From: a virus
DNA: 58,368 bases
Virus record (IMG/VR): IMGVR_UViG_3300033512_000032
Span: 1 to 58,368 of that record
Reading direction: 5' to 3' (one strand)
Positions 3,004 through 44,619 of this stretch are shown piece by piece. A program made the position numbers and the translations under genes. The notes beneath the pieces were generated by a model. That model worked only from the letters and a program-made list of their open reading frames with translations. It was not told the DNA's origin and made no database searches. How positions within the stretch are numbered: the first letter of the stretch is position 1; each line of letters starts with the position of its first letter.

Positions 3004-3004
3004 C

Positions 3005-26156: not shown

Positions 26157-26174
26157 AGTGATTAAAACATGAGA

Positions 26175-27741: not shown

Positions 27742-27745
27742 AAAC

Positions 27746-27780
27746 GACAGGGGTTCCTGGGAGAAGCAAGAACCCCTGTC
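27746..27780. terminator. Bidirectional terminator at the convergence of the plus and minus blocks
   Basis: GACAGGGGTTC / GAACCCCTGTC form a perfect 11-bp GC-rich stem with a 13-nt loop, flanked by an A-run upstream on the plus strand only. It lies between the two converging genes. Confidence 0.8.
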
Positions 27781-27813
27781 AACTACCCAACTAACACAGT
27801 ACAACGCGGGTTT

Positions 27814-30800
27814 TTATTCGTTAAACATTCCCATATACATGGACTTGCTTGGTTTATATAATGCTTTTGCTTGAGTCTTTAAAGTCTGATTCGTTATAAA
27901 CGGAATCTGACCAGCTTTTTTAGACTTCATAATGGCATTATTATAGTTACTTATATCATCCATGATAGACTTCATATCTTTACTCGAACCTTTATCAATT
28001 ACATAGTCACGCCACCGCTCGAGAATCTTATCATGCTTCACTTTATAAGAAGCAATTTCACGTTTAGTTTCCCAAGTACGTTCACCCATGGTTGCTTGTT
28101 CAGCAGATCTAAAACCAACTAACCGAGCAGCAGTTTCCATAGTAGATGGTATGTAGGGTTTTCCACTATCATCCCAGACCCTCTGACCTTTTGTAGTAGT
28201 AACGCCGTTAAGTTCTCTAATTGCTCTAAAAACATTTGCAAAACCAGTAGGCAATACTTTTTCTGCTGCTCTGCCGGGTTGCCCAATCTGTAGGAAATGC
28301 ATAGCATCTTCTACATCTTTATATAGGCCGCCGCCAATACCGAATAACTCATAGAAATTCCGTGGTGTTCCTACACCAATTGACATTGACCCAGATACAT
28401 CTAAATTTGCGGCACCGAGTAAACCATGTCTCCCAATACGCTCTGGAGTTTTACCTAGTTTCTTTCTTATCCAATCCCAGAAACCTTTTTCAGGATCGTC
28501 ATCAGAACCCATGGCTTTAAACATTACTCCCACAATTCCAAATAAAAGATTCTTCATAGGAATAACTGTTGCACCACCAAGGATGACAGGGGATATTAGG
28601 CCATATAAGAAAGCTTTAATGTTTCCTTTACGTACCCCCGTATCATAGAGCATTTGTAAGTAGTTGTGAGGGAACTTTCCAAATGTGTATAGTACCTGAG
28701 ATAACCGGGCAGCAGGCCCAGTTCCCTGGCCAACGGCGAGTTGTGTAGATTTACCATATATGCCATGGGCTTTATCAGACACATCGTGAGCTTTTCTAGT
28801 AACTTCACGACTATCCATATCTGGATTATTTTCTTTTATTAACCGATATGCAGCAAGCATCGTTGTTCCACGTATCCATTGCTCTGATTTACCAAATAGA
28901 TACATTGCTGTAGCCATTGTTTTTGCCCATACTTTGCCGTGTGCTCTTTGAATAGTTCCAAGAGCATCTCTAGTATATTGAGGTGAATCATAACCACGTT
29001 GTTTTATTTCATCAATGAAGGCTTGTTCACCCTTATCATCAAGTTTCTGGCCAAGCATAACTTTACGGTAGTCATTGGAAGCAATTGAAAGAGCGCCCAT
29101 GATCTTGGTCAGAGATCCTTTGCCATCTAAACCATACTGGTGGATTGCTGTAGGAACTGTGGTCGCAAGAGATAAAATGTTCACCACAGGTGACCTTAAG
29201 TTAAACCCAAGATATTTAAATGATGCAAGACTCTTGATTAAACCAACAAGTCTATCTGCTGCATCTGAATTACGCAGTTGTTCTTCAATATATTTAGTAG
29301 CGGTGTCATAGGCCCGAGGTTCTTTTGCTGGGTCTATACCACCAATAAGCTTTTTATCTTTACCAGTACCTTCATAGTGACCAGCTAAAGTTTCAAACAT
29401 ATCTTTTGCTGCTTCACCTTTAGCAACACCTGCCGCTATATTATTAATGTACCGTACGAATCTTTCATTAGGATCTGTAATATAACCACGAATAGCATCA
29501 CCAGGTTTACGAGTAACCATTGAAGCACGGAAACCGCGAACACGGATAAGGTCTGCGACTTCTTTTAAAAGTTCTTCATTAAACTTTATTTCGAGTTCTG
29601 GATCTATACCTTCAACACGTTGCATTGCAGTTTTAATTGCTTGCTGTGTATTGATAATCCGTAATGAAGCATAAACGTCTTCAGGAAGTCTTTCACGTTC
29701 AAAGATTTCTTCGACCTTGTAACCTTTACGCTCGAGTTCTCGTTTCAATAACTCTGCTGCGAAACGATTTGATTTATGATACCGCACCACTTTATCGAAG
29801 CGCTTACCTTTAACTACATATTCTCCAGTCTCACGTAAACGAGGAGCATATGTTCCTTTCAATGAACCCATACGAGCGAGAACTGCTTTAAGATTAATAG
29901 TCTCTGGTTTTCCATCTTCATTAAGAGTTACAAACTCAGGGTATTTCGGTTTTGTATTATCTTTTTCTGCTTGCTTCTCTATGCTAGCAACTAGTTTCTT
30001 CATTGGTTCCATTAGAATATCTAGTGCTACATCATATGATCTTCTGTGCGCTTTATATAGGTTAATTACATCTTGACCAACACCTTCATTCTGGAAGTGC
30101 TGCTCCCATGTAGGTATGTTGTCTCCATAACCTTTTTTCCATTCACCAGTGTCAATCTGGTCTTTCATCTTTTCAAGTTGCTTGTATTCCTTGGACGTCT
30201 CGCCTTTGACTATTTGTGTAGTAGTTAAACCTCTATGCATTAACTTCATATTTGCTTCAATGATGTCAGAAGAATTTTCCCAGGTTCTCTGCTTCATTGT
30301 TTCAGGATTAACTTCCATTTCATTAAGCAAATTGAATAGTTCAAAGTACCGATCGTGCCTGTCAATTGCTGCACGAACAATCTTCTGCATAGTAGGATGC
30401 TTGTACCACTCAGGAGACATCAGATAACGTTCTGCCCAATGCATTGCTGGTTGGTTCTTTGGTAACTGCATTACCATTGTCTTCAGCATTGCATAAGCCT
30501 GGTCATCGAATAAATTCTTCAACTCCTGTTTCGGCGTGTCAGGGGTTATGTCCTGATAGTCTACAATGCGGAATCGGCCACGAGGTTCTTCTTTTTTAGG
30601 TACTAGTTTAAGACTAGGTTTATAATCAGAATCTATATTAAGTGAAATTCCATTCTCATTAACTGATAACTCAGGTCTAGGTCCATTTCTTAATTCATTC
30701 CATGGTACTGCACCTTCAGTCTCTAATTCATTTTCCGTTTTATACTTAGCATCTTCGACCTGATACTTAGCAATATTTTTACTTGTATCTATATCCAGTA

Positions 30801-33800
30801 AGAAAGATTTGTTTTTATTAACACTTTTAAAGTTGTCTATAGCAGTAAAAATACTATTTATTGTTTTATCAGATAAAAACATTCCCAGTTCTTCTTTAAT
30901 TGCAGAAGGTTTAAATGTGCTAAATGGTAAGGCCATTATACTAGCATTTGACTTTTGCTCTATTACACCAGTACCATCAGGTCTAAGTAAAAAGATTAAG
31001 TTATTTAGTTTTGAATCACTAAAGTCAATTTCACCGTCTTCGTCTTCGTCTTCAGGAACATAATTTAATTTGCGAATATCTTCATCATTAAGTTTGATAT
31101 AGTTATTGATAGGCGACAATGCGTAGTCGACAATACTGAATCTACCGCGAGGTTCTCTAAATTTATTTAGTGGAGAATTATATACTATCTTAGGGTTAGT
31201 TACTTTTTTAAGTTGACCAATAGAGGTAACTACTCCTGATTTTACTACTTTTGTAGTTGTATAATCAGTTACGTCATAAATAATTTCTCCACTATCTGCC
31301 TCATCAAAAGCAAATGAAATAGAATCTAATTGTTCTTGCGTTAATTTATGGTGATTGGGAATTTCTACATAGGCATTTCCATCATCAAGGTTTGTTCTAA
31401 TAAGTCCTACTTCTGTAAATAATTTTCCAAGTAAATCCCCAGTAAAACTATCAAACCCACTTACTAATTGTTTATATATGTCTGGATATTTGCTTTGAAG
31501 AACCTCAATGATCCGACTATGTGGTCCACCTAAAACAACTGCTGTTCCATCAGGTAATATTAGACCAGAATCATATGGAAAGCCATATTGTTCAGTGGGA
31601 AATGATTCTTTAATCGCGTCAATTATTTTCTGAGCATAATTGGTTTGTGTAGCAGTAAGAGTTTTTTCAGTTTTACTAAACCACGGTTGACCTTTCTCAA
31701 CTACTGACTTTGCCATTTCAGGTGTGACTGTGAAGCCGGGTTGCTTAGAAAGTTCTTTACGTTCAATAGGTTGCTTAGCGTTAAAATCTCTTAAGATTTG
31801 CTCACTATTATCTTCAATCCAATCATCAAGGTCTTCTTCGCTATTAAACTGTTTACTATATTCTATACTGCCATTTGGGTTAAGCACATTTATTGTTAAA
31901 TTATCATAGTTTGATACAATATGTGTACCTTCTTCTAAATTCCAGGCTGCTGTGCCTTCACCTAAAATAGCCTTTGGCAATGGTTTATCGAGATGCATAC
32001 TTATTGTCTCGAGTCTTGCGCCCCACTGCTTGATATATTTTTCAGTCCAGTTCTTTAACTTCTCATCATAGAATGATTCCATACCTTCACCACCAATCTC
32101 GATATCGAGATTGGTATAGTGAGCAGTATGTTGTGCAGTATTAGAATTGTCATATATTGGTTCATTACTTAACATGCTACTGGGAAATAAAAGCGATGGC
32201 AATTTTTTAATTGCTCTAACAGCAAGTTCTTTACCTACATAATCAACTAACTTTTCATATGTGTCTGCTGCTTTTTGCAGTACTTGGGTGCCATCTTTTT
32301 TAGCAGTTACACCATAAGCACCAGGTAACTTTCTAATAATCACTTCATCAACTCGTTCTGCAATAATTCCTGGGTAGCGCTCTTGCTGCTGCTTACCCGT
32401 GGTCCAAGCGACGGAGTCAAAGTTATTATCAACAGCGTAGCGAATCATCCTCTTCATGAGGACCACATGCCAGTTCTCTAGGAACGGGGCAGTAGGTATT
32501 TGCTGTGAAAGTTCTCCACCTTCTACTATACTAAAATCTTGTTGTCCTAGTAACTTCTGCCAGGAGTTAAGAGCAGTTTGTGCTGCTTCTCTAGTGTTGT
32601 AGTGGCCAACTCGTGCCTCACCATTCATTACATGGTAAACTTGCTTTGTGTTAAAACCATATTTCTTTGCGTCTTGCAACCAGTCACTCTGAATTTCTTC
32701 AATGAACAAGACTCTCCGACCTTGGTCGTCGATTCGTTCATTAAACCGTATGTGCCCTAAAACATTGGCCTCGTGCCAGTGAGAGGATTGGTATAATGTT
32801 TTAGCACGTTTAGAACTGTCATTAGTTAATACGGTGACAGCATGTTCTGCTTTGGACGGATTGTTCCAACTAGATATAACTCTATCTGTATTATCATAAA
32901 CGTACCAGTTGCCATCTTCAGCACTATACTCAACTCTATATGTAACCTTAGACTTTGGCGCTTCAGTTGGGCTCCAGATCAGAAGTAATTCCCTCTGATC
33001 TTTGCCGCCGGACAGTACCCACTGATCATGTCTTAGATTACCGGAACGGCCAGTACCATCAATATAACTATCTGGATCATCATATAGTATTTCACGATCA
33101 GATTCATAGTCATCGATAATGGCATAAACCTTGTCTAACTCACCTTCAGTTAATTTGATACCAAATGGGTCAAGTACATCTATAAATGAAGGAACAGAGA
33201 ACTTGTTTACATTATCAAAACAACTGTCATATATACTTTGAAGAAACTCATCCTCAAAAGTATCATTATTTAATGCTGCCTGTAAACCATTTTGCCCTGC
33301 ATTTTCTATAGCAATAGTAAACAACCTGCCAGTAAGTTCTATTTGTATGTCACCCAAATTATCAAGTGCAGTCTCTGTAAAATAATTGATGTTAGTGTTA
33401 CTACCAACTGTAACTGTTTGCTCACTAATCCAGTTATGCAGTTCAGTTATCATGTCATCTGTAGCATTATCACCGTCTGCTTCCCATTCATTTGAAAACT
33501 CTTGTAGGTAGGTTGTTTGTTCCGGTGTTAAAATATAATTACCAAGAAGTATTTCACTGGCTGATAATTGTGGCATAGGGATTGTGGTACCAGGAGCTTT
33601 ATCACTATGCATTACTTCTTCAACTTTAATCTGATTTGCACTTAAGAAGTTAATGAAGTCTTGCTTATTAATTTTCTCTTTCCCTTTAAGATACTGCTCA
33701 ACTCCCATCCATTTTAACTCTGCCGGTTTAACAAACTTATTCAGCCAATTGACGAGTGACTGAGGTTTAGTAGGCATATCAGTTCGAGTAGTAACAGTTT

Positions 33801-36800: not shown

Positions 36801-39129
36801 TTTTAACTGGAGTTTCAGTAACTGGTTTAGTTTCATTTTGCTCCTTTATCTTTTGTTCTTTACGCTTCTCGCGTTCAATAGTTTTTGCCACTGCACTACG
36901 GCGTGAAACAGTTCGCTGATAAATTTTAGTTTTCTCATGACCTTGTTCTTCAAGGTCAGAGATAATACTATCAAGTACTGATAAACCTTCAGTTGGAGTC
37001 TTTGCTGCAAGGTATTCAGTATTACGGCGATTTACATATTCTTGAGCAGACTCTACTTTAGGTTGTGCAGGAACTAGTTCTTTACGACGAGCTACCCATT
37101 GCTTTTCACCAAGTTGAACTGGTACATATTTTTCTTCAGTGCCTTCATGCTTCATTTCTTTATAATTCTTTTGGATTGCACGCATGGCACTTACTTTATT
37201 TGTAAAAGGTTTCCCTTTATTTGTTAAATCATCAGTGTTAGAGTTCTCGTATGTAGGTGCCACTGGAACTGCTTGCTGTACAGGGGTTTGTGTAGGTCTC
37301 TGCTCCTGTTTGCCTTGTCCAGTGATAATGAGTGGTTGGCGTCTGTTACCTGCGACTACCTGCCCGAGGTTCTGGGACATTTGAGTCATTGCAATGGGTG
37401 CGCCAACCCATTCATTTTGGGCAAGTTCCATAGGTGCATGTGTCTCAGATAAACCTTGCTTCTTTAAGATTGCTTTAACTGAACCTTTATTAGAGAACAA
37501 CTCTCCCTTACTTGTGAAGACTAGTTGATTCTTTAAATTTTCGGGAATATTTTGTATTATACTTTTACCAGGCGTTAATTTAATAGTGTCACTAGTGGAG
37601 TCCTGTGGAGCCTCTTTTTCAATAGGATTACCGCTTTTGTCTAAAATTACACTCGGTTGAATATTAGGTGTCTGTGCACCTGGGTCCTTGGCACCCATAA
37701 TAAATGATGCCATGTCATTTGCTTTTTCTTCACTGAAACCTTTTTCAATAAACTTATCAAATAACTGTTGACGTAGTTCAAGGCCCATGGTCTGTCTAAC
37801 AACTTTATCATCAGCTGGTTTCTGCTCACCTTCAGGAATAACTTCAGGCTGATCAACTTTCGGTTGACCTCGCTCCATGAACTTATTAGTGTCAATATCA
37901 TTTTGCTTCGCGACTTCTTGATCTGCGAGTACGCCTTCTAAAGGTTTCATATCAGTGAACTTTTTATCAAGTTCTATTGGTTCACCTTCAAGAAGTTTAT
38001 ACTGTGCTATCTCACCCCATTTTTGAGCAACATTTGTATTATTAACTTTGTCAGTTTTTTGTAGTTCAGTGTAAATAGTTCTCATTGCATCGAAACGAGT
38101 ATCAAAATCCGTTTCCGGATTTTCTAACGCTTTAATAATGTTTGCTCGTTTCTTTACATCAACACCATGGAACAGACCACCAGTTATTGCTACTGATGTT
38201 ATTGTAGGGATAATTGAATCTACCGCTGCTTGCCAAGGTGTCTGACTCTGTGGCAAACCCATATCTATATTACTTTGGGTTTGTAAATAATTCTGGGTCA
38301 TTTCAGTAGCTACTTCAGCCGGTTGTGCTTTTGCTTGCGCTACTAAATAGTTTTTAGCACCACCTTTCCAACCCTGCTTTAGAATACTTCTAATAGATTC
38401 TTTGACTGGTTGTGTAGCAAGTTTACCCAAACCAAATGTGACACCTTCAATAACGTTAGATGCTGCTTCAAAACCACCTTCAATTAAGGCCTGTTTAAAA
38501 GCTTCATTCTTATATACATCTGCAGGTATAGGATTTTCTGGGTTCTCAGCATTATGTTTAAGCACATCACGGACTACTTGATCATATTGTGCGAGGCCAA
38601 AGATTGTGCCACCGCCACCAGCGAAACCAATAATAGCACCAGCAACTGGCATACCTACAGCAGAACCAACTGCTGCACCAGCGATAGCACCTGGAAGACC
38701 AGACCCAAGGGAAGGCACAATCATTTCTGCGCCTTCACGAACTTGACCACGAAGGTACGATTCGTCTTTTGCTGGTCCATAGACGTAAGGATATTTTTTC
38801 TCTAGTTTTTCTTTATTGACTACTAGCCAATTTGCAAATTGACCGACATAGTCTTCAGTATCACCAAAGTGCTTCTCATCTAGGTTCTCTCCGCCAGCAT
38901 GACCACCATAAGCTAATCTTGCTGCAGCTAACGTTCCTACTAAATTAGTAGCACCTACAACTGGAACTAATAAGGCATCCATAAATGGAGACCGTGCAAT
39001 ACCAGTAGACTGTTGTAGCTGTTGAGGTTGCTCAACTGCAGTTGATAGACCATAAAGGTCAGTTTGGTCGGTGGAAGTTAAATCAGTAGAAACGTTAAGA
39101 TCGGTTAAACCGTAAAGATCATCAGACAT
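27814..39129 (-). CDS. Giant virion-associated polyvalent protein (about 3,771 aa)
   Basis: Uninterrupted 11.3-kb ORF. The track starts at a TTG at 39168, but the ATG at 39129 follows GAAAGGAAAAAT. It is the last gene of the late operon. Contents: a Gly-rich hydrophobic N-terminus, two ART-like modules, a duplicated EPRGRF peptide and multiple C-terminal hydrophobic helices. Confidence 0.85.
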   Translation of the reverse strand: MSDDLYGLTDLNVSTDLTSTDQTDLYGLSTAVEQPQQLQQSTGIARSPFMDALLVPVVGATNLVGTLAAARLAYGGHAGGENLDEKHFGDTEDYVGQFANWLVVNKEKLEKKYPYVYGPAKDESYLRGQVREGAEMIVPSLGSGLPGAIAGAAVGSAVGMPVAGAIIGFAGGGGTIFGLAQYDQVVRDVLKHNAENPENPIPADVYKNEAFKQALIEGGFEAASNVIEGVTFGLGKLATQPVKESIRSILKQGWKGGAKNYLVAQAKAQPAEVATEMTQNYLQTQSNIDMGLPQSQTPWQAAVDSIIPTITSVAITGGLFHGVDVKKRANIIKALENPETDFDTRFDAMRTIYTELQKTDKVNNTNVAQKWGEIAQYKLLEGEPIELDKKFTDMKPLEGVLADQEVAKQNDIDTNKFMERGQPKVDQPEVIPEGEQKPADDKVVRQTMGLELRQQLFDKFIEKGFSEEKANDMASFIMGAKDPGAQTPNIQPSVILDKSGNPIEKEAPQDSTSDTIKLTPGKSIIQNIPENLKNQLVFTSKGELFSNKGSVKAILKKQGLSETHAPMELAQNEWVGAPIAMTQMSQNLGQVVAGNRRQPLIITGQGKQEQRPTQTPVQQAVPVAPTYENSNTDDLTNKGKPFTNKVSAMRAIQKNYKEMKHEGTEEKYVPVQLGEKQWVARRKELVPAQPKVESAQEYVNRRNTEYLAAKTPTEGLSVLDSIISDLEEQGHEKTKIYQRTVSRRSAVAKTIEREKRKEQKIKEQNETKPVTETPVKKTTETTQAKPEETKTKSKAQEVATRLNIAKKKFIDYILSDKGIFYHATNVPVTDILKNGILKNDKGEVFFTPFDAMGYGAHIVKFIAKLLDMNKVLPDPFTLESTLKGEEGYISPAEIKSNPELELKLFDLANSQKLTECIYLGNVPVNSIISFSGNEDFDEDNPPLKKKEYSELNKELVKAKDNVIKFVPKSTTIIDEITKQLDSSDLGEYPMDVLEDWLHDTKGITQEEIEKLYTTGEENIKKQYDIWMEEFNRQPVAVYFDTIADHLEEHEGDFDTLITQAKESLTKSQIDKLQLKLVKGGEANRPTLTEEEREVVNDPEVIAAKNKFQKNIKSKPFLYHATNLETVKDIEENGFNPSLGVNGGTFFFTDLNEATLMEDTTSNIIKVDTSKLDIEKLFPDMNYDVEVTNDGRDFSKTPYDLLKTKSTALRMFKSGEQGELSVVYMGVIPKEAIVKEGGETNGQVQTETQVTPKQKVEKLRANVVEKRLKAGEDVTDEGVAKFKTLALRWTRNPETNKWEEHEPAYKTEQNKASLTEEEREARADQRAIAKAGTKPKKVVKKTIRDLIKKSQSELKKLKAELAKATTEQEREDIEFAIDSTRQDIKILANRLMAKKSSPKVQWFGEKDNGEETNKQEHPLAKHISYMSPVMAQEQLDHYTEIEPDTGMRMLKKMSPVTMPRAFAAMINYAGHFSDGTVDLSMISKFITQLEKGVKAGKLDNFFAPTERTEAGTYDEKQSFTQDVAVVKDFLSKTIEIGVGRTKKSGGFKRTEGKGPGLSVKEVTDVSDRISELWPNSPFVIVLDNRDQLPPELKEKIAADSDRYDIGGAQLGDTVFLIRSELHNKFGVMRTMLHESIGHYGIYKTLGTKFDSTALSIYDSFKDTKKMEKIIFDYKFDVGKEKDRIDAGAEYLAFMAEENQGTTTFWEKVRMSINNILRSIGFGVNLTTGDLKALLSDSQKFLKGEIGASTNIEDYFSNEKIPRLDKVTNAPTFYSTLLQTVTTRTDMPTKPQSLVNWLNKFVKPAELKWMGVEQYLKGKEKINKQDFINFLSANQIKVEEVMHSDKAPGTTIPMPQLSASEILLGNYILTPEQTTYLQEFSNEWEADGDNATDDMITELHNWISEQTVTVGSNTNINYFTETALDNLGDIQIELTGRLFTIAIENAGQNGLQAALNNDTFEDEFLQSIYDSCFDNVNKFSVPSFIDVLDPFGIKLTEGELDKVYAIIDDYESDREILYDDPDSYIDGTGRSGNLRHDQWVLSGGKDQRELLLIWSPTEAPKSKVTYRVEYSAEDGNWYVYDNTDRVISSWNNPSKAEHAVTVLTNDSSKRAKTLYQSSHWHEANVLGHIRFNERIDDQGRRVLFIEEIQSDWLQDAKKYGFNTKQVYHVMNGEARVGHYNTREAAQTALNSWQKLLGQQDFSIVEGGELSQQIPTAPFLENWHVVLMKRMIRYAVDNNFDSVAWTTGKQQQERYPGIIAERVDEVIIRKLPGAYGVTAKKDGTQVLQKAADTYEKLVDYVGKELAVRAIKKLPSLLFPSSMLSNEPIYDNSNTAQHTAHYTNLDIEIGGEGMESFYDEKLKNWTEKYIKQWGARLETISMHLDKPLPKAILGEGTAAWNLEEGTHIVSNYDNLTINVLNPNGSIEYSKQFNSEEDLDDWIEDNSEQILRDFNAKQPIERKELSKQPGFTVTPEMAKSVVEKGQPWFSKTEKTLTATQTNYAQKIIDAIKESFPTEQYGFPYDSGLILPDGTAVVLGGPHSRIIEVLQSKYPDIYKQLVSGFDSFTGDLLGKLFTEVGLIRTNLDDGNAYVEIPNHHKLTQEQLDSISFAFDEADSGEIIYDVTDYTTTKVVKSGVVTSIGQLKKVTNPKIVYNSPLNKFREPRGRFSIVDYALSPINNYIKLNDEDIRKLNYVPEDEDEDGEIDFSDSKLNNLIFLLRPDGTGVIEQKSNASIMALPFSTFKPSAIKEELGMFLSDKTINSIFTAIDNFKSVNKNKSFLLDIDTSKNIAKYQVEDAKYKTENELETEGAVPWNELRNGPRPELSVNENGISLNIDSDYKPSLKLVPKKEEPRGRFRIVDYQDITPDTPKQELKNLFDDQAYAMLKTMVMQLPKNQPAMHWAERYLMSPEWYKHPTMQKIVRAAIDRHDRYFELFNLLNEMEVNPETMKQRTWENSSDIIEANMKLMHRGLTTTQIVKGETSKEYKQLEKMKDQIDTGEWKKGYGDNIPTWEQHFQNEGVGQDVINLYKAHRRSYDVALDILMEPMKKLVASIEKQAEKDNTKPKYPEFVTLNEDGKPETINLKAVLARMGSLKGTYAPRLRETGEYVVKGKRFDKVVRYHKSNRFAAELLKRELERKGYKVEEIFERERLPEDVYASLRIINTQQAIKTAMQRVEGIDPELEIKFNEELLKEVADLIRVRGFRASMVTRKPGDAIRGYITDPNERFVRYINNIAAGVAKGEAAKDMFETLAGHYEGTGKDKKLIGGIDPAKEPRAYDTATKYIEEQLRNSDAADRLVGLIKSLASFKYLGFNLRSPVVNILSLATTVPTAIHQYGLDGKGSLTKIMGALSIASNDYRKVMLGQKLDDKGEQAFIDEIKQRGYDSPQYTRDALGTIQRAHGKVWAKTMATAMYLFGKSEQWIRGTTMLAAYRLIKENNPDMDSREVTRKAHDVSDKAHGIYGKSTQLAVGQGTGPAARLSQVLYTFGKFPHNYLQMLYDTGVRKGNIKAFLYGLISPVILGGATVIPMKNLLFGIVGVMFKAMGSDDDPEKGFWDWIRKKLGKTPERIGRHGLLGAANLDVSGSMSIGVGTPRNFYELFGIGGGLYKDVEDAMHFLQIGQPGRAAEKVLPTGFANVFRAIRELNGVTTTKGQRVWDDSGKPYIPSTMETAARLVGFRSAEQATMGERTWETKREIASYKVKHDKILERWRDYVIDKGSSKDMKSIMDDISNYNNAIMKSKKAGQIPFITNQTLKTQAKALYKPSKSMYMGMFNE

Positions 39130-39183
39130 ATTTTTCCTTTCAAGAGGTTCCTCATTGCGAGACCCCAATAAATAAAGTTGCCA

Positions 39184-40728
39184 CTAATTCGGTGAATCGT
39201 AACCCCAAGCATTTAAACCAACACTATTATCTTTAACAACTTGCTTAATATTTTTTGGTATACTTCTTTTGTTAGCTTCCACTTGTTTAGTAAGTAACGT
39301 CTTAGTCTGTAACAAAAGATTGCGGCCCTCTTCCCATGCTTTCGGATCTTCATTCTTTAGTGACTGTGCTGCCTGCTGCCGCATACTATTGATATTTGAA
39401 ATGAACCCCGGATCTTTTATATTTTTCAAGATCCCCTGTACTTCATTATCAAGCATACCAAATTCTTTACGTGTTTGGACAGGGGCTTTAAAGGTGTCAG
39501 GGAATGTCTTACCTAAGCGTTTAGCAGTTCCGTCATACTGATAAGCCTGCTGCTTTTGCCTTATTATTTCTTGCACTTTTGCATTTTTAACTTTTTCATA
39601 GTCATCTTGTGAAAGAGTTATATTTTCATTAGTATTGGGGTCAATTGTGTGACGTAAACCATCGGGTCCAACTGGCCATGCTTTATCATACGCTGCACCG
39701 ATTACTGTTGGGTCAAGTTTAGTGCTAACATCAGTGTGCTCAGAACTTAAGGTAGCCTGTTTGTTTGTACTATTTGCAACGTCACGTTGTGCGGCGACTT
39801 GCATACTAATACCTTGCAAATACCTTGCGTCAGTCGCTGCTTGTGACTCAGAAGTCTGAACGGCTTTACCAACATCAACATACTCTTTACTCGGTAAGAA
39901 CTCACCTTCTTTAATTCCAGTGACTTGTGACTGGCGACCCGTGACCTGGCGAGCTTTAGTAAGATAATCGTAAGTAGCACCTTGCTCTTTTAAAGCATTA
40001 TCGATTGCTGTAGTGTCACCATCTAACGATTTAAGAATGCCTTGTGCCCATTGTAAATATTTTTTATTTTCAAGATACAGGGGCCTAGGGTCTTTCTGAT
40101 AGCGGGCGTAATCATTAACATCTTTTTGATAAGTGTCAAAAAGAGTTTTTTTATTCGGGTCACTCTGAGAGTCAATTTTAAGTTGATCTAACTCCGCTTG
40201 AGAAGCAAATGCACCAGCACTCTGTAAACCAAGGGCTTGCTTTGATTGTAGCACTTTATCAGTTAATTGCGCCATTGGATCTTTTGTTGATGTAAGTGCT
40301 ACAGTAATAGGTTGCGCTACATAACCTACTTCACGCATTGACATAGGCTTCTTATCTTTATTAAAGACTAACTGTTGATTAGGGTCTGGATTATTTTCAT
40401 CAGTAACACCTATATTAGCCATCTTCATAATGCCGTGTATTTTTTCTAATGCAGAAGCATCAATAGGTTTACCACCAGTCACCATATTTCCTATTAATGA
40501 TAGCGTTGCAGGTCGGTTCAAGAAGTCTTCTTTCGCTTTAATCTTATTAAGCTTTAGTTTATCTTCTTGTAGTTTGACATCTTTAAGTTCGAGGTCCTTA
40601 GAGCGAGTTTGTTCCTCACCCATAAACTTTGCAAGGCCCAATGTAGCATTATAGTTATCCTGACCTACACCACGAATAGTGCTAGTTAAGCCATTCCAAC
40701 TTGCTGATAAATCCTCGTTTGCTGCCAT
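39184..40728 (-). CDS. Putative internal virion (ejection) protein (514 aa)
   Basis: Long helical, Q/K/D-rich ORF between the GNAT-like gene and the giant gene. GAGGT RBS. Function is inferred from position only. Confidence 0.5.
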   Translation of the reverse strand: MAANEDLSASWNGLTSTIRGVGQDNYNATLGLAKFMGEEQTRSKDLELKDVKLQEDKLKLNKIKAKEDFLNRPATLSLIGNMVTGGKPIDASALEKIHGIMKMANIGVTDENNPDPNQQLVFNKDKKPMSMREVGYVAQPITVALTSTKDPMAQLTDKVLQSKQALGLQSAGAFASQAELDQLKIDSQSDPNKKTLFDTYQKDVNDYARYQKDPRPLYLENKKYLQWAQGILKSLDGDTTAIDNALKEQGATYDYLTKARQVTGRQSQVTGIKEGEFLPSKEYVDVGKAVQTSESQAATDARYLQGISMQVAAQRDVANSTNKQATLSSEHTDVSTKLDPTVIGAAYDKAWPVGPDGLRHTIDPNTNENITLSQDDYEKVKNAKVQEIIRQKQQAYQYDGTAKRLGKTFPDTFKAPVQTRKEFGMLDNEVQGILKNIKDPGFISNINSMRQQAAQSLKNEDPKAWEEGRNLLLQTKTLLTKQVEANKRSIPKNIKQVVKDNSVGLNAWGYDSPN

Positions 40729-40744
40729 AGTTAATATACCTCAT

Positions 40745-41170
40745 TTAATCCTTAATAAAGCCAGTGTCAGAATCTTGCAATGCCAGTATATATGTTGTTG
40801 CATTAGTCTCGGCTACTTGCATCCCGTATTTCGTCAGTTTATCACCCCATGATTTTGTTTTCGTCATTGAGTAAATAAATGCACAGCCGTTAGACTTAGC
40901 TACATCTACCAGAGCATCAAATAATGTTTGTAAAGCCTTGTCACTTTCTTCCTGTGGCCGCGATCTATCTTTTAATGCCCAGTCGATAAAACCCATTCTT
41001 CTAGGTTCAGAATACATTGCCAAAAATGCAATAAAATCACCACTGGTGGTTTCAGCTACTAGCGCTGTATGAGGAATGGCATTTAATGGGCAAGGCAACC
41101 AGCCATAACTATGCCATAACTGAGACATTATCTTATAATGTTTGGCCGGGTTAAATGCGACAATATTCAT
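40745..41170 (-). CDS. GNAT-like acetyltransferase (putative)
   Basis: 141 aa with alternating beta/alpha segments. LVAETTSGDFIAFLAMY...GFIDWAL...LFDALVDVAKSNGCAFIY...KYGM fits the GNAT core pattern. No profile search was done. Confidence 0.4.
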   Translation of the reverse strand: MNIVAFNPAKHYKIMSQLWHSYGWLPCPLNAIPHTALVAETTSGDFIAFLAMYSEPRRMGFIDWALKDRSRPQEESDKALQTLFDALVDVAKSNGCAFIYSMTKTKSWGDKLTKYGMQVAETNATTYILALQDSDTGFIKD

Positions 41171-42728
41171 TTAAGTAATCCAATCTCTGTTGTGCAGTCA
41201 TATTTTCACTATCAGTGACTTCACCATAATCAGCGAACCGAATGCCATTAACCATGAGAGTATGCTTTTCGTTATTAATGATGTAAACTTTAACTAACAA
41301 ATCAGAATCAACAATAGCTGCATATTTACTGTTCTTTACTCGCTTCCACTCGCCATCTTCATAAACAGCATGAGAACCGGTTACGCCAATTCCTTCATAG
41401 TTGAATATGTCTTTTGCTAGTACAATACCAATCCCTGTGACCATACCACCTTCAGCACAGTCTTCCATGAGGCCAACATCTTCCACCGGTTTCGTTGTAC
41501 CATCAGACATTGTAATAGGTGTTCCGGCAAGAAAACAGAATAGATTACCAATTGCACCTAATGGATTAAGTACTGCATTGGCTACTTGCCCAGCAGTACT
41601 TGGTTCATCTGCATCAGAAAATGGATTAAGAATTGCATTTGTTGCCGTATTCAAGGTTTCTTTATTAAAAGCGTCATCATCTCCAAAGGCATAATCTATT
41701 GGTGCCATTACCGTTCTTTCAAGAGCTGCCATATTTTTAGCTGCTCTTCCTGCGACAGTACCATCTGGTGCTAGTAATGTTCCGGGCGCTAATGAAGCCA
41801 TGACTCCTGCTGTGCCAGGACTATCAACAGTTCTTTGTTGCTTTGTCTTTTCTTCATACGGGATACCAGCCCCGCCCCACTGTCCTCTTGCCATTTCTGC
41901 AGCTGCTATATATGCTATGGCATTTCCGGCAACTTTTGCGGTACTTGATAGTGCTCCTGTTTTCCCTGCACCATAAGCAGCACCTTCACCAACATAAGTT
42001 CCAGTCCCAGCAGTACCTGATATACCAGGGGTTACCGCATTGGCCCCATAAGCAGCACCTTCACTAGCTAGTGCGTTTGTTCCATAAGCAGCACCTTCAC
42101 CAATATAAGTTCCAGTGGCTGCAGTGCCTGACAGACCTGCATTTGAAGCTGTACTAGCTGCAAGACCTCCTACTTCAGGTGCCACTACAGATGCTGCATC
42201 AGCAACTAATGCTGGTGTAGATGGTTTTGTCGCAAGAGTAGCTTCGCCAAGTGAAGTTGTTACAGGGTTTGTGGAAGTAGAAGAATTTAGACCAAGAGCA
42301 TCTTTAATTCCAGTTAAACCCTTAGAGATTAAACCTGGTTCTTGAGTAACACCCGAAGCACTAGCCAATTTCTCTGCAAGTAAACTATTTTTATAGGCGC
42401 CATAGGCACTAACACCAGTTCCAAGCATTCCAAGCATGTTGCCAGTAGTAGCATTTGACTTTGCTGCATCTGCTTCTTGAGCAGATAGAGCTGTCATATC
42501 ATTATAGTATTTAAGCTGATTTTCTTTCTCTTGTTTATCTACATTTAATGCTTCTTGCTGAATAGCCACACCAGCGTTTGCATTTTTTAAAACGTCTTGA
42601 TTATATTCTGCATCTTCAGTTGCAGCATAGGCAGCAGGTAAAGAAGCAGCTTTTGCTTTTACTATAGCGCCATAATCTAAACCATAATAAGGTTTTTTAG
42701 TTAGAGCTGATAGTTGAGTTGTACCCAT
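41151..42728 (-). CDS. Internal virion protein with C-terminal Hint (bacterial intein-like) domain
   Basis: Gly/Ala/Thr-rich N-terminal part with internal repeats GT(A/G)TGTY(I/V)GEGAAYG. The C-terminal module starts CFLAGTPITMSDGTTKPVEDV and contains VTGSHAVY, as Hint domains do. Confidence 0.65.
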   Translation of the reverse strand: MGTTQLSALTKKPYYGLDYGAIVKAKAASLPAAYAATEDAEYNQDVLKNANAGVAIQQEALNVDKQEKENQLKYYNDMTALSAQEADAAKSNATTGNMLGMLGTGVSAYGAYKNSLLAEKLASASGVTQEPGLISKGLTGIKDALGLNSSTSTNPVTTSLGEATLATKPSTPALVADAASVVAPEVGGLAASTASNAGLSGTAATGTYIGEGAAYGTNALASEGAAYGANAVTPGISGTAGTGTYVGEGAAYGAGKTGALSSTAKVAGNAIAYIAAAEMARGQWGGAGIPYEEKTKQQRTVDSPGTAGVMASLAPGTLLAPDGTVAGRAAKNMAALERTVMAPIDYAFGDDDAFNKETLNTATNAILNPFSDADEPSTAGQVANAVLNPLGAIGNLFCFLAGTPITMSDGTTKPVEDVGLMEDCAEGGMVTGIGIVLAKDIFNYEGIGVTGSHAVYEDGEWKRVKNSKYAAIVDSDLLVKVYIINNEKHTLMVNGIRFADYGEVTDSENMTAQQRLDYLNEYCRI

Positions 42729-43202
42729 TTATTTACTCCCAAGACGTTTTAAGTAAAGTTGTAAAAGAGACTCTGTCATTTGATTCTGATTATAAGCCCC
42801 ATATAAACCAATACCTGCGTTTACAGCACCTAGTACATTGGACCAAGATGATTTATCTTTTGCTAAGTCTAAAGTATCACGAGCATTTTGAGTGCGAAGA
42901 TTATAATAAGCATTGGATGTGCCAATACCTAGTGTTTTATCTATGTCAACTTTTTGCTGGTCAAGGTTTAACTTTGCCTTTGCTAAAGCAACTGAATCAT
43001 TATGTTCTTTGGCAGTAGTTGCTAAATTAGAAACAGCCAGATTATGGGCAGATAATTGCTTCATTGCTGCTTGATCTACGTCAGAAAAATTTGCTAAGGC
43101 CCGTAGAGCAGGAGGCATATTGAGAACCCTTTGCATCATTTGCTGGTACTCTGGGTTCTCTGTCATCGCACCTATATCTGCTGCCATTGTCGGAATAGCC
43201 AT
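42729..43202 (-). CDS. Hypothetical virion protein (157 aa)
   Basis: ORF with the RBS GTAGGAGAATATC. Its stop abuts the next start. Confidence 0.6.
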   Translation of the reverse strand: MAIPTMAADIGAMTENPEYQQMMQRVLNMPPALRALANFSDVDQAAMKQLSAHNLAVSNLATTAKEHNDSVALAKAKLNLDQQKVDIDKTLGIGTSNAYYNLRTQNARDTLDLAKDKSSWSNVLGAVNAGIGLYGAYNQNQMTESLLQLYLKRLGSK

Positions 43203-43276
43203 GATATTCTCCTACATGTAGATAAATTATATTAACACACTTCGACCACAAAGTAAACCGAATTATAAAATAAAGT

Positions 43277-43753
43277 TTACTTTTTATCAACAGGGGCTGA
43301 GTTAAATATCATATCTGTTTTATCCTTTGAAGATTTTGTAGTTCCAAAGAAATATCCAGTAATTGTTTTATACTCACCTATAATGATTCCTACAAAGCCA
43401 CCAATTAAAGCAGCCACGCCAGGTTCTACGGTTGGAAGGCCTTTGTAAAGTAGATAACTAATAATGCCTATTGGAGCAATAACACACCAAGTAGCTAGAA
43501 TATATAGGAAATAATCTGCATGGCCTGTTGCTTGTTCTCTCTTACTTTGGTTATCCCTTGCATTAGCTCGATCTTTAAATTCCTCAATCTTAAGTTGAAA
43601 CTCATTATTTAAGTCCTGAAGTTCACCTTTCTGTTGCAACTCGAACAATGCAAACTTAGCCTTATCCGCATCTGCTTTATCTGGGAATATCTTATCAAGT
43701 ATCTTCCCACCAAAGTCTGCAATACTTCCAATTCCTAAAGCATCAAGTCCCAT
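43277..43753 (-). CDS. Holin-like membrane protein (resembles the 3-TM GTA-type holin family)
   Basis: N-terminal ILDKIFPDKADADKAKFALFELQ followed by hydrophobic helices FLYILATWCVIAPIGIISYLLY and AALIGGFVGIIIG. Adjacent to a putative wall hydrolase. Confidence 0.45.
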   Translation of the reverse strand: MGLDALGIGSIADFGGKILDKIFPDKADADKAKFALFELQQKGELQDLNNEFQLKIEEFKDRANARDNQSKREQATGHADYFLYILATWCVIAPIGIISYLLYKGLPTVEPGVAALIGGFVGIIIGEYKTITGYFFGTTKSSKDKTDMIFNSAPVDKK

Positions 43754-43754
43754 A

Positions 43755-44144: not shown

Positions 44145-44287
44145 AGCTTCCCATCCTCTCTCAACGCCCTCTCGACAAGCTCCAATCGCTTCAAGTCATT
44201 GTTTCTGCACTCTCTCAAAGCAGTTATCTCAAAGGCCAATTCCATCCATGTCTTCATTATTTGATGCCATATTTCGTAATAGTTCAT
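44141..44287 (-). CDS. Hypothetical small protein (48 aa)
   Basis: Hand translation MNYYEIWHQIMKTWMELAFEITALRECRNNDLKRLELVERALREDGKL. ATGA-coupled at both ends, and it fills the gap between two track ORFs. Confidence 0.5.
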   Translation of the reverse strand: MNYYEIWHQIMKTWMELAFEITALRECRNNDLKRLELVERALREDGKL

Positions 44288-44604: not shown

Positions 44605-44619
44605 AACGTCTCCTTTTTA

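What the first reader, a model, noticed from the sequence alone, without database searches (positions are those of the whole stretch)
27814..43202. A 15-kb effector island at the distal end of the late operon
Downstream of the lysis cassette the late operon ends with six genes:
- A 157-aa protein
- The Hint-domain protein
- The GNAT-like protein
- A 514-aa helical protein
- The giant polyvalent protein

In T7-like and N4-like phages this slot encodes proteins that are ejected into the host. Here the slot combines autoprocessing (Hint), a putative acetyltransferase and putative twin ARTs. This suggests a coordinated, injected host-takeover or anti-defence system rather than purely structural core proteins. 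I know of no described system with this exact composition, but I could not search.
Basis: inference. Interest (0 to 1): 0.7.

Follow-up and report, generated by a model that had tools for sequence, protein, structure and literature searches.

The report
Phage ejection-protein operon with bolt-on enzymes
The last 15 kb of this phage's virion-gene strand is a five-gene operon of probable internal (ejected) virion proteins, ending in a giant multi-enzyme protein of an already described class, and its one new feature is a self-cleaving Hint domain always paired with a small acetyltransferase-fold protein.

Summary
The ORFs are real, but there are five, not six. All lie on the minus strand: 157, 525, 141, 514 and about 3,780 aa.

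**Domain calls**
- GNAT fold of p141: confirmed (AF2 pLDDT 90; 153 Foldseek hits, the 50 listed all GNAT-family).
- Hint domain: well supported. Cys1 and the block-B His are invariant, and only intein or Hint models hit, all sub-threshold.
- Twin modules: true paralogues with a probable ART-superfamily fold. The model is weak, and they are not Pfam ART-PolyVal members.
- Giant protein: also has a conserved HExxxH motif and passes the NCBIfam 'tail-700' (PLxRFG) cutoff.

**Context**
- A small / ~500-aa / GNAT / mid-size / giant gene order recurs in about nine metagenomic lineages; cultured phage vB_Pun_Y3 has a looser version.
- The Hint+GNAT pair and the twin modules are accessory. Both are absent from the closest relative.
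- A comparable giant protein was found in phi24B virions by mass spectrometry.

**Verdict**
This is an ejection-protein operon carrying accreted effector cassettes, which is the known 'polyvalent protein' theme (Iyer 2017). Packaging, ejection and enzyme activities are inferred. The obligate Hint–GNAT pairing appears undescribed.

The parts
43262..43290 (-). Near-consensus sigma-70-type promoter (TTGATA-17-TATAAT), about 60 nt upstream of the p157 ATG. A strong AGGAG ribosome-binding site follows.
   Evidence: It is the best match in the 19-kb scan, 11 of 12 positions. It is the only TTGAYA-N16-18-TATAAT site in the whole window on either strand; 0.17 are expected by chance. The sequence was read. 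The closest relative has TTTACT-17-TATAAT plus AGGAG at the same position.
42729..43202 (-). p157, a small protein and the first gene of the unit. It is probably an internal virion or ejection protein.
   Evidence: The ORF is. It has no Pfam, PHROG or NCBIfam hit. A 37%-identical orthologue sits at the same position in L004. Proteins of 116-165 aa occupy this position in other lineages.
41538..42728 (-). N-terminal 397 residues of p525, rich in Ala and Gly. This is the predicted released fragment, ending ...GAIGNLF.
   Evidence: Composition and junction were read. Residues 1-167 are conserved with L004. Residues 65-397 and 271-397 are conserved with L098 and L095 respectively.
41154..41537 (-). 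C-terminal Hint-type autoprocessing domain of p525 (aa 398-525). Cys398 sits at the predicted cleavage site F397|C398.
   Evidence: Pfam Vint gives E 0.0011 on the fragment. Of 6 family members, 5 hit Hom_end_hint and 4 hit Vint, and no other family recurs. The family profile hits only intein chains in the PDB: NEQ068 E 0.006 and PI-SceI E 0.049. C1, H56 (GxHAV), E90, H92 and D103 are invariant.
40745..41170 (-). p141, a GNAT-fold protein whose start overlaps the end of p525 by 20 nt.
   Evidence: It has seven homologues. The AF2 model has pLDDT 90 and pTM 0.86, with GNAT topology. Foldseek against the PDB gives 153 hits at E<=1e-3, and the 50 listed are all GNAT-family proteins. The overlap sequence was read. 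A Hint domain lies upstream in every locus found.
39184..40728 (-). p514, a mid-size protein of unknown fold and a positional orthologue of the 329-504-aa proteins in related clusters.
   Evidence: It is 21% identical over 371 aa to the L004 504-aa protein, E 8e-8. No family hit exceeds noise.
27814..39168 (-). Giant polyvalent-type protein. It is 3,784 aa from the TTG at 39168, or about 3,771 aa from the more likely ATG at 39129.
   Evidence: The ORF is. Start-site context was read. The domain evidence is listed in the rows below.
36874..39030 (-). Conserved N-terminal region of the giant (aa 47-765). It contains Gly-rich hydrophobic segments at aa 65-83 and 162-193.
   Evidence: It is 53% identical to the L004 giant. 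Residues 119-342 match the L114 giant. There is a weak RTX N-terminal hit, E 0.047.
36319..36726 (-). ART-like module 1 (aa 815-950), with YHATN ... FFT ... PD.
   Evidence: It is a paralogue of module 2, pairwise E 1e-10. It lies inside the aa 766-1244 segment that is absent from the L004 giant.
35404..35832 (-). ART-like module 2 (aa 1113-1255).
   Evidence: The AF2 model has pLDDT 61.5. All of the top 50 Foldseek hits are ART-superfamily proteins, with Tpt1/KptA at E 1.3e-3, plus DarT, PARPs and toxins. The only real homologues among 1.84 billion representatives are P0009 and P0010. Those two weakly hit Pfam Tpt1 and PARP.
33610..34416 (-). Metallopeptidase-like region (aa 1585-1853). HESIGH (HExxxH) lies at aa 1645-1650 (nt 34219-34236), followed by a conserved GAEY.
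   Evidence: The motif was found. L004 conserves it as HEVVGH. An HExxH motif lies upstream of the same conserved block in the L113, L114 and L115 giants. The region is similar to the Dfl-JY45 polyvalent protein, E 4e-9. There is no Pfam hit.
31996..33120 (-). Conserved domain of unknown function (aa ~2017-2391), with motifs S.HW..NV, QSDW, AW.T and, in five of the six sequences, GG.GM.
   Evidence: It matches Dfl-JY45 at E 7e-28 and MW202675 at E 7e-10. It matches the L113, L114 and L115 giants.
27925..29853 (-). C-terminal 'tail-700' / PLxRFG domain (aa 3106-3748), with a hydrophobic segment at aa 3520-3546.
   Evidence: NCBIfam NF032893 scores 112.8 bits against a cutoff of 100, E 1.7e-32. 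The same domain is found in the L004 giant and in the 5,145-aa 'structural protein' of Pseudomonas phage 8P, E 2.6e-230.
27745..27781 (.). Intrinsic terminator hairpin (15-bp stem, 8 G-C pairs) in the 72-nt gap between the giant and the convergent helicase gene. It marks the end of the unit.
   Evidence: From the scan. The sequence was read.

Best explanation
The region is one transcription unit, running from a promoter-like site at 43290-43262 to a terminator at 27781-27745. It encodes the phage's internal-virion (ejection) protein set. A positionally conserved backbone has picked up optional enzymatic cassettes, following the 'polyvalent protein' logic.

**Backbone**
- p157.
- The N-terminal part of p525.
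- p514.
- Four parts of the giant: the hydrophobic N-terminal region, the HExxxH region, the S.HW/QSDW central domain and the C-terminal tail-700 (PLxRFG) domain.

**Optional cassettes**
- A Hint autoprocessing domain on the C-terminus of p525, together with a translationally overlapping GNAT-fold protein (p141).
- A ~480-aa insertion in the giant that carries two ART-fold modules.

**Proposed mechanism**
1. The proteins are made from this operon and packaged in the head.
2. The Hint domain cuts p525 at F397|C398 by an N-to-S acyl shift, releasing a 397-aa Ala/Gly-rich fragment.
3. At infection the proteins leave through the tail. The hydrophobic N- and C-terminal regions of the giant help form or anchor the trans-envelope conduit.
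4. The HExxxH peptidase may cut the giant into pieces.
5. The ART-like modules, and possibly the GNAT-fold protein, then modify host targets.

**Shown versus inferred**
- Shown: the ORFs, the GNAT and Hint fold assignments, the paralogy of the twin modules, domain sharing with known polyvalent proteins, conserved gene order, strict Hint+GNAT co-occurrence, the accessory status of the cassettes, and the promoter and terminator motifs.
- Inferred: virion packaging, ejection, every catalytic activity, and all targets.
For: **Operon structure**
- Five co-directional, tightly spaced ORFs.
- The window's only near-consensus sigma-70 promoter sits just upstream of p157, and a related element sits in the relative.
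- A strong terminator follows the giant.

**Conserved cluster**
- The same gene order occurs in L086/087, L091, L095, L098, L099, L104, L105 and L108.
- Cultured phage vB_Pun_Y3 has a looser version of the order. Its capsid protein is 42% identical to ours.

**Giant protein**
- The tail-700 domain scores above the curated cutoff.
- That domain is shared with the 8P 'structural protein', which also carries methylases, an SNF2 helicase and LPD23.
- Two other domains are shared with the Dfl-JY45 protein, which carries 4x ART-PolyVal.
- HExxxH is conserved, and Iyer et al. describe HEXXXH peptidases in polyvalent proteins.

**Virion association by analogy**
- phi24B gp47 was found in virions by mass spectrometry.
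- Phage polyvalent proteins sit among late virion genes.

**Cassettes**
- GNAT fold.
- Hint.
- ART-like fold.
- The standalone homologues P0009 and P0010 lie in arrays of small phage-like genes. This fits accretion of a solo effector into the giant.
- L004 lacks both cassettes but keeps the backbone.
Against: - There is no proteomic or experimental evidence for this phage or any close relative.
- No island protein resembles T7 gp14-16, P22 ejection proteins or N4 vRNAP at sequence level.
- The ART call rests on a low-confidence model, and the strand-2 Tyr is Phe in both copies.
- p141 lacks the canonical Q/RxxGxG/A CoA-binding loop (by inspection).
- The peptidase is a motif-level call with no Pfam hit.
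- A strong sigma-70 promoter could mean the unit is not strictly late.
- phi24B gp47 lacks the tail-700 domain, so the analogy is architectural and not homology-based.
Confidence: 0.62

Rival explanations
1. The unit is a purely structural ejectosome. The enzyme-like parts are not host-directed effectors. The Hint domain is only a self-removing maturation device, comparable to the autocleaving C-terminal chaperone domains of tail fibres. p141 is an assembly factor with a GNAT fold but no transferase activity. The twin modules are inactive spacers.
For: - The backbone is conserved while the cassettes are dispensable.
- p141 lacks the glycine-containing CoA loop.
- Both modules carry Phe where H-Y-[E/D] ARTs carry Tyr.
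- No curated enzyme family is matched at threshold.
- The phi24B authors propose a conduit role for gp47.
Against: - The predicted catalytic His and Asp, and a Tyr-Gly motif, are invariant across two 30%-identical paralogues and two distant standalone homologues. That pattern is unusual for a spacer.
- The standalone homologues sit among small non-structural genes.
- A different, canonical GNAT occupies the same slot in vB_Pun_Y3. This argues that transferase function is what is selected.
- p141 shows many invariant polar and aromatic residues in the alpha1-alpha2 and beta5-alpha4 regions, by inspection.
Confidence: 0.2
2. Hint and p141 form a two-part protein acyl-transfer system. The Hint domain converts the F397-C398 peptide bond into a thioester. 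The GNAT-fold partner, whose fold normally uses acyl-CoA thioesters, directs aminolysis of that thioester, perhaps through its invariant Cys27. The 397-aa fragment would end up covalently attached to an amine on another virion protein or on the host envelope.
For: - Co-presence is strict in every lineage found: window, L086-090, L091-094, L095-097, L098, L099/100, L104, L105 and L108.
- Both are absent from L004.
- A 20-nt gene overlap is seen in most of these loci.
- The Hint domain is C-terminal and has no C-extein or HN junction, so it resembles a Hedgehog-type transfer domain rather than an intein.
- p141 lacks the CoA pyrophosphate loop but keeps an invariant Cys in a W.PCP motif.
Against: - The chemistry is entirely inferential.
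- vB_Pun_Y3 has a GNAT in the same slot without any Hint domain, so a GNAT there does not need a Hint partner.
- Co-inheritance could simply reflect a shared recombination cassette.
- Hydrolysis is the default fate of Hint thioesters.
Confidence: 0.1
3. The proteins are not packaged. The unit is expressed from its own host-type promoter and acts inside the producing cell, for example to modify host or phage proteins during infection.
For: The strongest sigma-70-like promoter in the genome lies directly upstream. There are no virion data for this phage.
Against: - The unit sits at the end of the virion-gene strand and is co-oriented with it.
- The tail-700 domain is shared with a protein annotated as structural in phage 8P.
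- Giant polyvalent proteins were found in phi24B virions.
- The conserved hydrophobic termini are typical of ejection proteins. This point is an inference.
Confidence: 0.08

Closest known systems
Polyvalent proteins of phages and conjugative elements (Iyer, Burroughs, Anand, de Souza, Aravind 2017, PMC5512222)
   Same: - A very large protein encoded among virion genes that combines unrelated domains.
- An ART-type module in more than one copy.
- A zincin-like peptidase motif, including the HEXXXH variant.
- A GNAT nearby.
- Domains shared with proteins that carry Pfam ART-PolyVal, LPD23 and a methylase-helicase dyad.
   Different: - The twin modules are not the ART-PolyVal family: there is no Pfam hit and hhalign gives 3% probability.
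- No named LPD or MPTase Pfam model matches.
- The word 'Hint' does not occur as a domain name in that paper, and 'intein' does not occur at all.
Distal late-gene cluster of Pseudoalteromonas phage vB_Pun_Y3 (OR779980; 'Poorviridae', PMC11654794)
   Same: It is a cultured relative (capsid protein 42% identical). After the tail fibre it encodes a 519-aa protein, a GNAT, three mid-size proteins, a 3,421-aa giant with ART-PolyVal-like and HExxH/HExxxH motifs, and a 1,027-aa ART protein.
   Different: - The 519-aa protein has no Hint domain.
- Its GNAT is canonical and not detectably homologous to p141.
- No island protein matches at E<1e-3.
- The authors listed the ART as an auxiliary metabolic gene and did not treat the cluster as an ejection module.
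phi24B gp47 (Stx phage, Traversvirus) and its upstream small genes
   Same: It is a 2,807-2,811-aa polyvalent protein at the very end of the late region of a ~58-kb podovirus, preceded by several small and mid-size ORFs. It was detected in virions by mass spectrometry and proposed to be a capsid-packaged ejection protein.
   Different: It has no tail-700 domain and no detectable sequence similarity to our giant. Its domains are LPD1, LPD5, LPD38 and MuF-C according to the authors.
PLxRFG / 'tail-700' giant proteins (NCBIfam NF032893), e.g. Pseudomonas phage 8P gp023 and the Klebsiella Lastavirus 495-kDa protein
   Same: The C-terminal ~650-aa domain scores above the curated cutoff. The protein is a giant encoded in the structural module of a ~60-kb podovirus-type genome.
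   Different: The N-terminal cargo differs completely: 8P carries methylases, an SNF2 helicase and LPD23. The eponymous motif has diverged here, APRLRETG against APLSRFG. The function of this domain is uncharacterised in the papers found.
Hedgehog/BIL-type Hint domains (N-terminal cleavage only) and inteins
   Same: - Cys at position 1 in a CF.(A)GTP block A.
- An invariant His in a block-B-like GxHAV.
- Only intein or Hint models are hit.
   Different: - There is no C-extein.
- There is no terminal His-Asn plus nucleophile, so protein splicing is not expected.
- All hits are sub-threshold.
- The location, at the C-terminus of a putative internal virion protein and always followed by a GNAT-fold gene, was not found in the literature searched.
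T7 gp14/gp15/gp16, N4 vRNAP and T4 Alt (ejected proteins)
   Same: The concept is the same: proteins carried in the head and ejected with the DNA, with some forming a conduit and some modifying the host.
   Different: No sequence or family similarity was detected. No RNA polymerase domain and no lytic transglycosylase were found.

Membership tests
Polyvalent proteins (Iyer et al. 2017) | One large polypeptide combining two or more domains with unrelated activities | tested here: met
   The giant has two ART-like modules, an HExxxH region, a conserved central domain and a tail-700 domain. It shares domains with Dfl-JY45 (4x ART-PolyVal) and with the 8P giant.
Polyvalent proteins (Iyer et al. 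2017) | Encoded next to late or virion genes in phages | tested here: met
   It is the last gene on the strand that carries terminase, portal, capsid, tail and lysis genes.
Polyvalent proteins (Iyer et al. 2017) | Delivered into the host with the DNA | not testable with these tools
   The only support is an analogy to the phi24B gp47 mass-spectrometry data.
Zincin-like MPTase of polyvalent proteins | HExxH or HExxxH helix plus a downstream Glu ligand, recognised by a family model | tested here: inconclusive
   HESIGH and a downstream GAEY are conserved in L004. HExxH lies upstream of the same block in three distant giants. No Pfam model matches.
Pfam ART-PolyVal (PF18760) | Match to the family profile | tested here: not met
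   There is no hit at E<=5 on isolated segments. hhalign against four genuine copies aligns only YH(G/A)T, with 3% probability.
ADP-ribosyltransferase superfamily (H-Y-[E/D] type) | ART fold | tested here: inconclusive
   The top 50 Foldseek hits are all ARTs (Tpt1/KptA E 1.3e-3, DarT, PARPs, toxins). The model has pLDDT 61.5 and TM-scores are 0.24-0.46. Homologues P0009 and P0010 hit Pfam Tpt1 and PARP at E ~1e-3 to 1e-2, below threshold.
ADP-ribosyltransferase superfamily (H-Y-[E/D] type) | Catalytic His (strand 1), Tyr (strand 2) and Asp/Glu (strand 5) | tested here: inconclusive
   His and Asp are invariant in all four sequences. The strand-2 position is Phe in both window copies and in P0009, and Tyr in P0010. 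Assignment of residues to strands relies on the weak model.
GNAT superfamily | GNAT fold (beta1-alpha1-beta2-4-alpha3-beta5-alpha4-beta6-7) | tested here: met
   The AF2 model has pLDDT 90 and pTM 0.86 with that topology. Foldseek gives 153 PDB hits at E<=1e-3, probability 1.00 and TM-score up to 0.74. The 50 listed are all GNAT-family proteins.
GNAT superfamily | Acetyl-CoA pyrophosphate-binding loop Q/R-x-x-G-x-G/A after beta4 | tested here: not met
   The loop reads KDRSRPQEESD and has no Gly in any of the 7 members (by inspection). No Pfam acetyltransferase model matches.
Hint / intein superfamily | N-terminal nucleophile (Cys/Ser 1) and block-B His | tested here: met
   C1 and H56 are invariant in six lineages. 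The motif is present in all upstream proteins examined.
Hint / intein superfamily | Match to a Hint family model at the curated threshold | tested here: not met
   The best results are Vint at 19.2 bits against a cutoff of 27, and Hom_end_hint at E 0.0011. Profile hits to the PDB are inteins only, at E 0.006-0.25. The signal is consistent but sub-threshold.
Inteins (protein splicing) | C-terminal His-Asn followed by a Cys/Ser/Thr C-extein | tested here: not met
   The domain is followed by a 25-50-aa tail and then the stop codon, with no HN+nucleophile junction.
NCBIfam NF032893 'tail-700' (PLxRFG domain) | Score above the curated cutoff | tested here: met
   It scores 112.8 bits against a cutoff of 100, E 1.7e-32, covering profile positions 2-646 of 681.
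N4-like virion RNA polymerase | Single-subunit RNA polymerase domain inside the giant protein | tested here: not met
   No Pfam, PHROG, NCBIfam or PDB hit of that kind was found on the whole protein or on ten segments.
T7-type internal core (gp14/gp15/gp16) | Sequence-family membership, or the lytic transglycosylase of gp16 | tested here: not met
   No PHROG or Pfam hit was found for any of the five proteins.

The most novel reading that the evidence does not exclude
The Hint domain and its obligate GNAT-fold partner may be a previously unrecognised two-component protein-ligation device. The Hint-generated thioester at Phe397 would serve as the acyl donor. The GNAT-fold protein has lost the CoA loop but kept an invariant Cys. 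It would transfer the 397-aa virion-protein fragment onto an amine of another virion protein or of the host envelope, as a covalent anchor for the ejection apparatus. The twin modules would separately define a new, very rare ART-fold family closer to Tpt1 and DarT, which act on nucleic acids, than to the ART-PolyVal family, which is predicted to modify proteins.
Probability: 0.1. Interest if true: 0.85.

Novelty: new variant of a known kind. Interest (0 to 1): 0.45.

Why it matters
Giant ejected 'polyvalent' proteins are widespread but almost unstudied experimentally. This locus separates a conserved backbone from swappable cassettes, which gives a map for deletion and swap experiments.

The Hint+GNAT pair is a compact hypothesis that can be tested directly by cleavage at F397|C398 with and without p141. 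If the pair proves to be a protein acyl-transfer system, it would be new protein chemistry with biotechnological use.

The twin modules may define a rare ART-fold family. If they do nothing, the locus is simply one more example of the scheme Iyer et al. described in 2017.

Tried and rejected
**Searches that found nothing or failed**
- A whole-giant homologue search timed out.
- A homologue search with aa 800-1900 found nothing among 8,000 word-sharing candidates.
- A megablast of the island against 50,697 phage records found no match.
- A PDB sequence search of the giant, p525 and p141 returned only noise.
- Pfam on ten segments of the giant returned only noise.
- The search for related loci with a two-sequence alignment of the C-terminal domain recovered only the same contig.
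- A genome-contig scan with the GNAT alignment found nothing, so there is no prophage or host clue.

**Hits rejected**
- The top hit of the representative search, P0008, was rejected. It is a TPS/YDG-repeat haemagglutinin matched ten times on a 58-residue stretch, which is a compositional artefact.

**Ideas rejected**
- ART-PolyVal membership of the twin modules.
- An N4-like vRNAP reading of the giant, because no polymerase domain was found.
- An intein reading of the Hint domain, because there is no C-extein junction.
- A homing-element reading of Hint+p141, because p141 has a GNAT fold and is not a nuclease.

**Literature**
Searches for Hint domains in phage virion proteins returned only terminase inteins. 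Searches for a Hint-GNAT link returned nothing relevant.

**Not done**

Full report
**1. What is at the coordinates**

The window is a 58,368-bp contig, the same length recorded for the contig that carries p141. It has podovirus-type modules.
- A plus-strand replication block encodes DNA polymerase, primase and two helicases.
- A minus-strand virion block encodes terminase and portal at 4330..970 and then, continuing from the other end of the record, the major capsid protein at 57632..56622, followed by adaptor and tail genes and tail fibres.
- Downstream on that strand lie a DUF5675 protein (E 1.8e-32) and a holin-like protein.

Exactly five ORFs follow within 43202..27814:

| Gene | Coordinates (minus strand) | Note |
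|---|---|---|
| p157 | 43202..42729 | first gene of the unit |
| p525 | 42728..41151 | C-terminal Hint domain |
| p141 | 41170..40745 | overlaps p525 by 20 nt |
| p514 | 40728..39184 | |
| giant | 39168..27814 | 3,784-codon ORF |

The finding's 'six genes' is a miscount. The gaps of 74, 16 and 15 nt leave no room for another gene. The giant most likely starts at the ATG at 39129, preceded by AAGGA, and not at the TTG at 39168.

**2. It looks like its own operon**

- The only TTGAYA-N16-18-TATAAT site in the whole window, on either strand, lies at 43290-43262. That is the gap just upstream of p157, and it is followed by an AGGAG ribosome-binding site. Chance predicts 0.17 such sites in the entire window.
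- The closest relative has TTTACT-17-TATAAT plus AGGAG at the equivalent place.
- A 15-bp-stem hairpin with a T-run follows the giant at 27781-27745.
- These are motif matches and not transcript data.

**3. The small proteins**

p157 and p514 have no family hits.
- p157 has a 37%-identical orthologue in contig IMGVR_UViG_3300014204_000439 (loci L004/L085).
- p514 has a weak orthologue there, 21% identity, E 8e-8.
- 'Helical' was not tested.

**4. Hint**

The last 128 residues of p525 begin CFLAGTPITM and contain TGSHAV.
- On its own the fragment gives Pfam Vint at E 0.0011 and Hom_end_hint at E 0.039.
- I collected the equivalent domain from related loci and aligned six lineages. C1, H56 (GxHAV), E90, H92 and D103 are invariant.
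- Five of six members hit Hom_end_hint and four hit Vint. No other family recurs.
- The profile hits only intein chains in the PDB: NEQ068 at E 0.006 and PI-SceI at E 0.049, the latter aligned on block A.
- Every hit is below curated thresholds, but they are consistent. I accept a Hint fold at roughly 85-90%.
- There is no C-extein and no HN junction, so this is an N-terminal-cleavage type, like Hedgehog or BIL domains, and not an intein.
- The predicted cut is F397|C398, which would release a 397-aa Ala/Gly-rich fragment.

**5. GNAT**

- p141 has no family hit except an unannotated PHROG at E 4e-4.
- With seven homologues, AlphaFold2 gives pLDDT 90 and pTM 0.86 with classic GNAT topology.
- Foldseek returns 153 PDB hits at E<=1e-3. 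The 50 listed are all GNAT-family proteins, including Ard1/Naa10, NatC, aminoglycoside 6'-acetyltransferases, TacT and AtaT.
- The beta4-alpha3 loop lacks the Q/RxxGxG/A signature in all members, so acetyl-CoA use is uncertain.

**6. Hint and GNAT travel together**

- Every locus that carries a p141 homologue has a Hint domain at the end of the upstream gene wherever upstream sequence is available. In most of them the two genes overlap by 20 nt.
- These loci are L086-088 and L090, L091-094, L095-097, L098, L099/100, L104, L105 and L108.
- The closest relative, L004, lacks both.
- That makes about nine lineages with the pair, one with neither, and none with only one.
- No paper in the library describes this pairing.

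**7. The giant protein**

Comparison with the 2,868-aa L004 giant splits it into conserved and variable blocks.
- Conserved blocks: aa 47-765, 1245-1852, 2046-2530 and 2829-3782.
- Absent from L004: aa 766-1244, 1853-2045 and 2531-2828.

*N-terminus.* It has Gly-rich hydrophobic segments.

*Twin modules.* The aa 766-1244 insert holds two modules, aa ~815-950 and ~1113-1255. They are 30% identical, pairwise E 1e-10, and share YHATN, FFT, PD and Y.G..P.
- Pfam does not call them ART-PolyVal.
- hhalign against four genuine ART-PolyVal copies aligns only the YH(G/A)T strand, at 3% probability.
- A profile search of 1.84 billion representatives found only two credible relatives, P0009 (141 aa) and P0010 (206 aa).
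- Those two weakly hit Pfam Tpt1 and PARP. They lie in arrays of small genes typical of mobile elements.
- An AF2 model of module 2 is poor (pLDDT 61.5). Even so, its top 50 Foldseek hits are all ART-superfamily proteins, led by Tpt1/KptA at E 1.3e-3, then DarT, PARPs and toxins.
- I rate 'ART fold' at about 60-65% and 'ART-PolyVal member' as rejected.

*Peptidase-like region.* aa 1645-1650 read HESIGH (HExxxH).
- The motif is conserved in L004 together with a downstream GAEY.
- An HExxH sits upstream of the same conserved block in three distant giants.
- Iyer et al. describe HEXXXH peptidases in polyvalent proteins.

*Central domain.* aa ~2017-2391 form a conserved domain of unknown function with motifs S.HW..NV, QSDW and AW.T, plus GG.GM in five of the six aligned sequences. 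It is shared with Dolichospermum phage Dfl-JY45 (E 7e-28) and with several metagenomic giants.

*C-terminus.* aa 3106-3748 pass the curated cutoff of NCBIfam 'tail-700' / PLxRFG.
- The 5,145-aa 'structural protein' of Pseudomonas phage 8P carries the same domain behind methylases, an SNF2 helicase and LPD23.
- The Dfl-JY45 protein that shares two of our domains carries four ART-PolyVal copies.
- Membership in the polyvalent-protein class is therefore well supported.

**8. Context from known phages**

- Iyer et al. 2017 describe this logic: large virion-associated proteins with ARTs, GNATs and metallopeptidases, predicted to enter the host with the DNA. They note GNATs next to ARTs and solo GNATs among late structural genes.
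- vB_Pun_Y3 has a capsid protein 42% identical to ours. After its tail fibre it encodes a 519-aa protein, a GNAT, three mid-size proteins, a 3,421-aa giant and a 1,027-aa ART protein. It has no Hint domain, its GNAT is unrelated to p141, and no island protein matches at E<1e-3.
- phi24B gp47 is a 2,811-aa polyvalent protein at the end of the late region. It was detected in virions by mass spectrometry but is invisible in the cryo-EM map, and was proposed to be an ejection protein. It lacks tail-700.
- Klebsiella Lastavirus phages carry a 495-kDa PLxRFG protein of unknown role.

**9. Interpretation**

- The best reading is an ejection-protein operon whose conserved backbone carries optional enzyme cassettes.
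The class is known and predicted to be injected, but most of the 15 kb is backbone, and only Hint+GNAT show coordinated inheritance.
- Rival readings are set out in the report sections with what would refute each: a purely structural module, a Hint-GNAT ligation device, and non-packaged enzymes.
- Nothing here demonstrates packaging, ejection or catalysis.

**10. Novelty and score**

- The island as a whole is another instance of a described theme.
- The variant features are the obligate Hint-GNAT pair, an orphan ART-fold family present in two copies, and a dedicated promoter.
- Interest is 0.45.
- The most novel reading not excluded is Hint thioester plus GNAT-fold acyl transfer. I give it about 0.1 probability.

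Noticed in passing
window 43262-43290 (minus strand); L085 847-882: The only near-consensus sigma-70 promoter in the 58-kb window lies in the 74-nt gap before p157. The closest relative has a perfect -10 box with 17-nt spacing at the same place. The 'distal end of the late operon' may therefore be a separate transcription unit.
   Followed up: partly
window 39129 vs 39168: The giant ORF is listed from a TTG with no Shine-Dalgarno sequence. An ATG 13 codons downstream has AAGGA 7 nt upstream and is the more likely start, giving about 3,771 aa.
   Followed up: partly
window 31996-33120 (giant aa ~2017-2391): This domain (GG..Y.ELLL, S.HW..NV, QSDW, AW.T, and GG.GM in five of six sequences) is the most widely conserved piece of these giant proteins. 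It occurs twice in the Dolichospermum phage Dfl-JY45 protein. It matches no Pfam, NCBIfam or PHROG model, and its function is unknown.
   Followed up: partly
L116 (vB_Pun_Y3, OR779980) 19497-37521: The published annotation lists the ART (ORF31) as an 'auxiliary metabolic gene' and labels the GNAT 'diamine N-acetyltransferase'. Together with the 3,421-aa 'DdrB-like ParB' protein they occupy the same slot as this island. They are more plausibly an ejection or polyvalent-protein module.
   Followed up: partly
L091 12262-17079: The 1,605-aa protein downstream of a Hint+GNAT pair contains two YHGS/FRAS...FFTD-type modules. One hits an ART-PolyVal profile weakly (E 0.0014 in a small database). A different ART type may fill the same role in that lineage. 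The Hint gene in this contig is interrupted by a run of N.
   Followed up: partly
L109, L110, L111: The only credible homologues of the twin modules are standalone proteins of 141 and 206 aa. They lie in tight same-strand arrays of small ORFs, next to DUF2786/DUF7168 and RF-1-domain genes, which looks like the early region of a mobile element.
   Followed up: partly
window 1-4330 and 43277-58303: The virion genes run off both ends of the window on the same strand: terminase and portal at the start, capsid to lysis at the end. The window length equals the contig length recorded for p141. This is probably a complete, circularly permuted genome.
   Followed up: no
window 43755-44144: The DUF5675 protein taken as the endolysin contains HSGN...DTEGCLLVG. 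From memory, this resembles the His/Cys motif of YkuD-type L,D-transpeptidase-fold enzymes. This was not tested.
   Followed up: no
L113 172-3120: A distant giant that shares our central block has a Pfam MuF_C domain (E 2e-29) near its N-terminus. This links the clade to the MuF-associated virion proteins discussed by Iyer et al. and to phi24B gp47.
   Followed up: no
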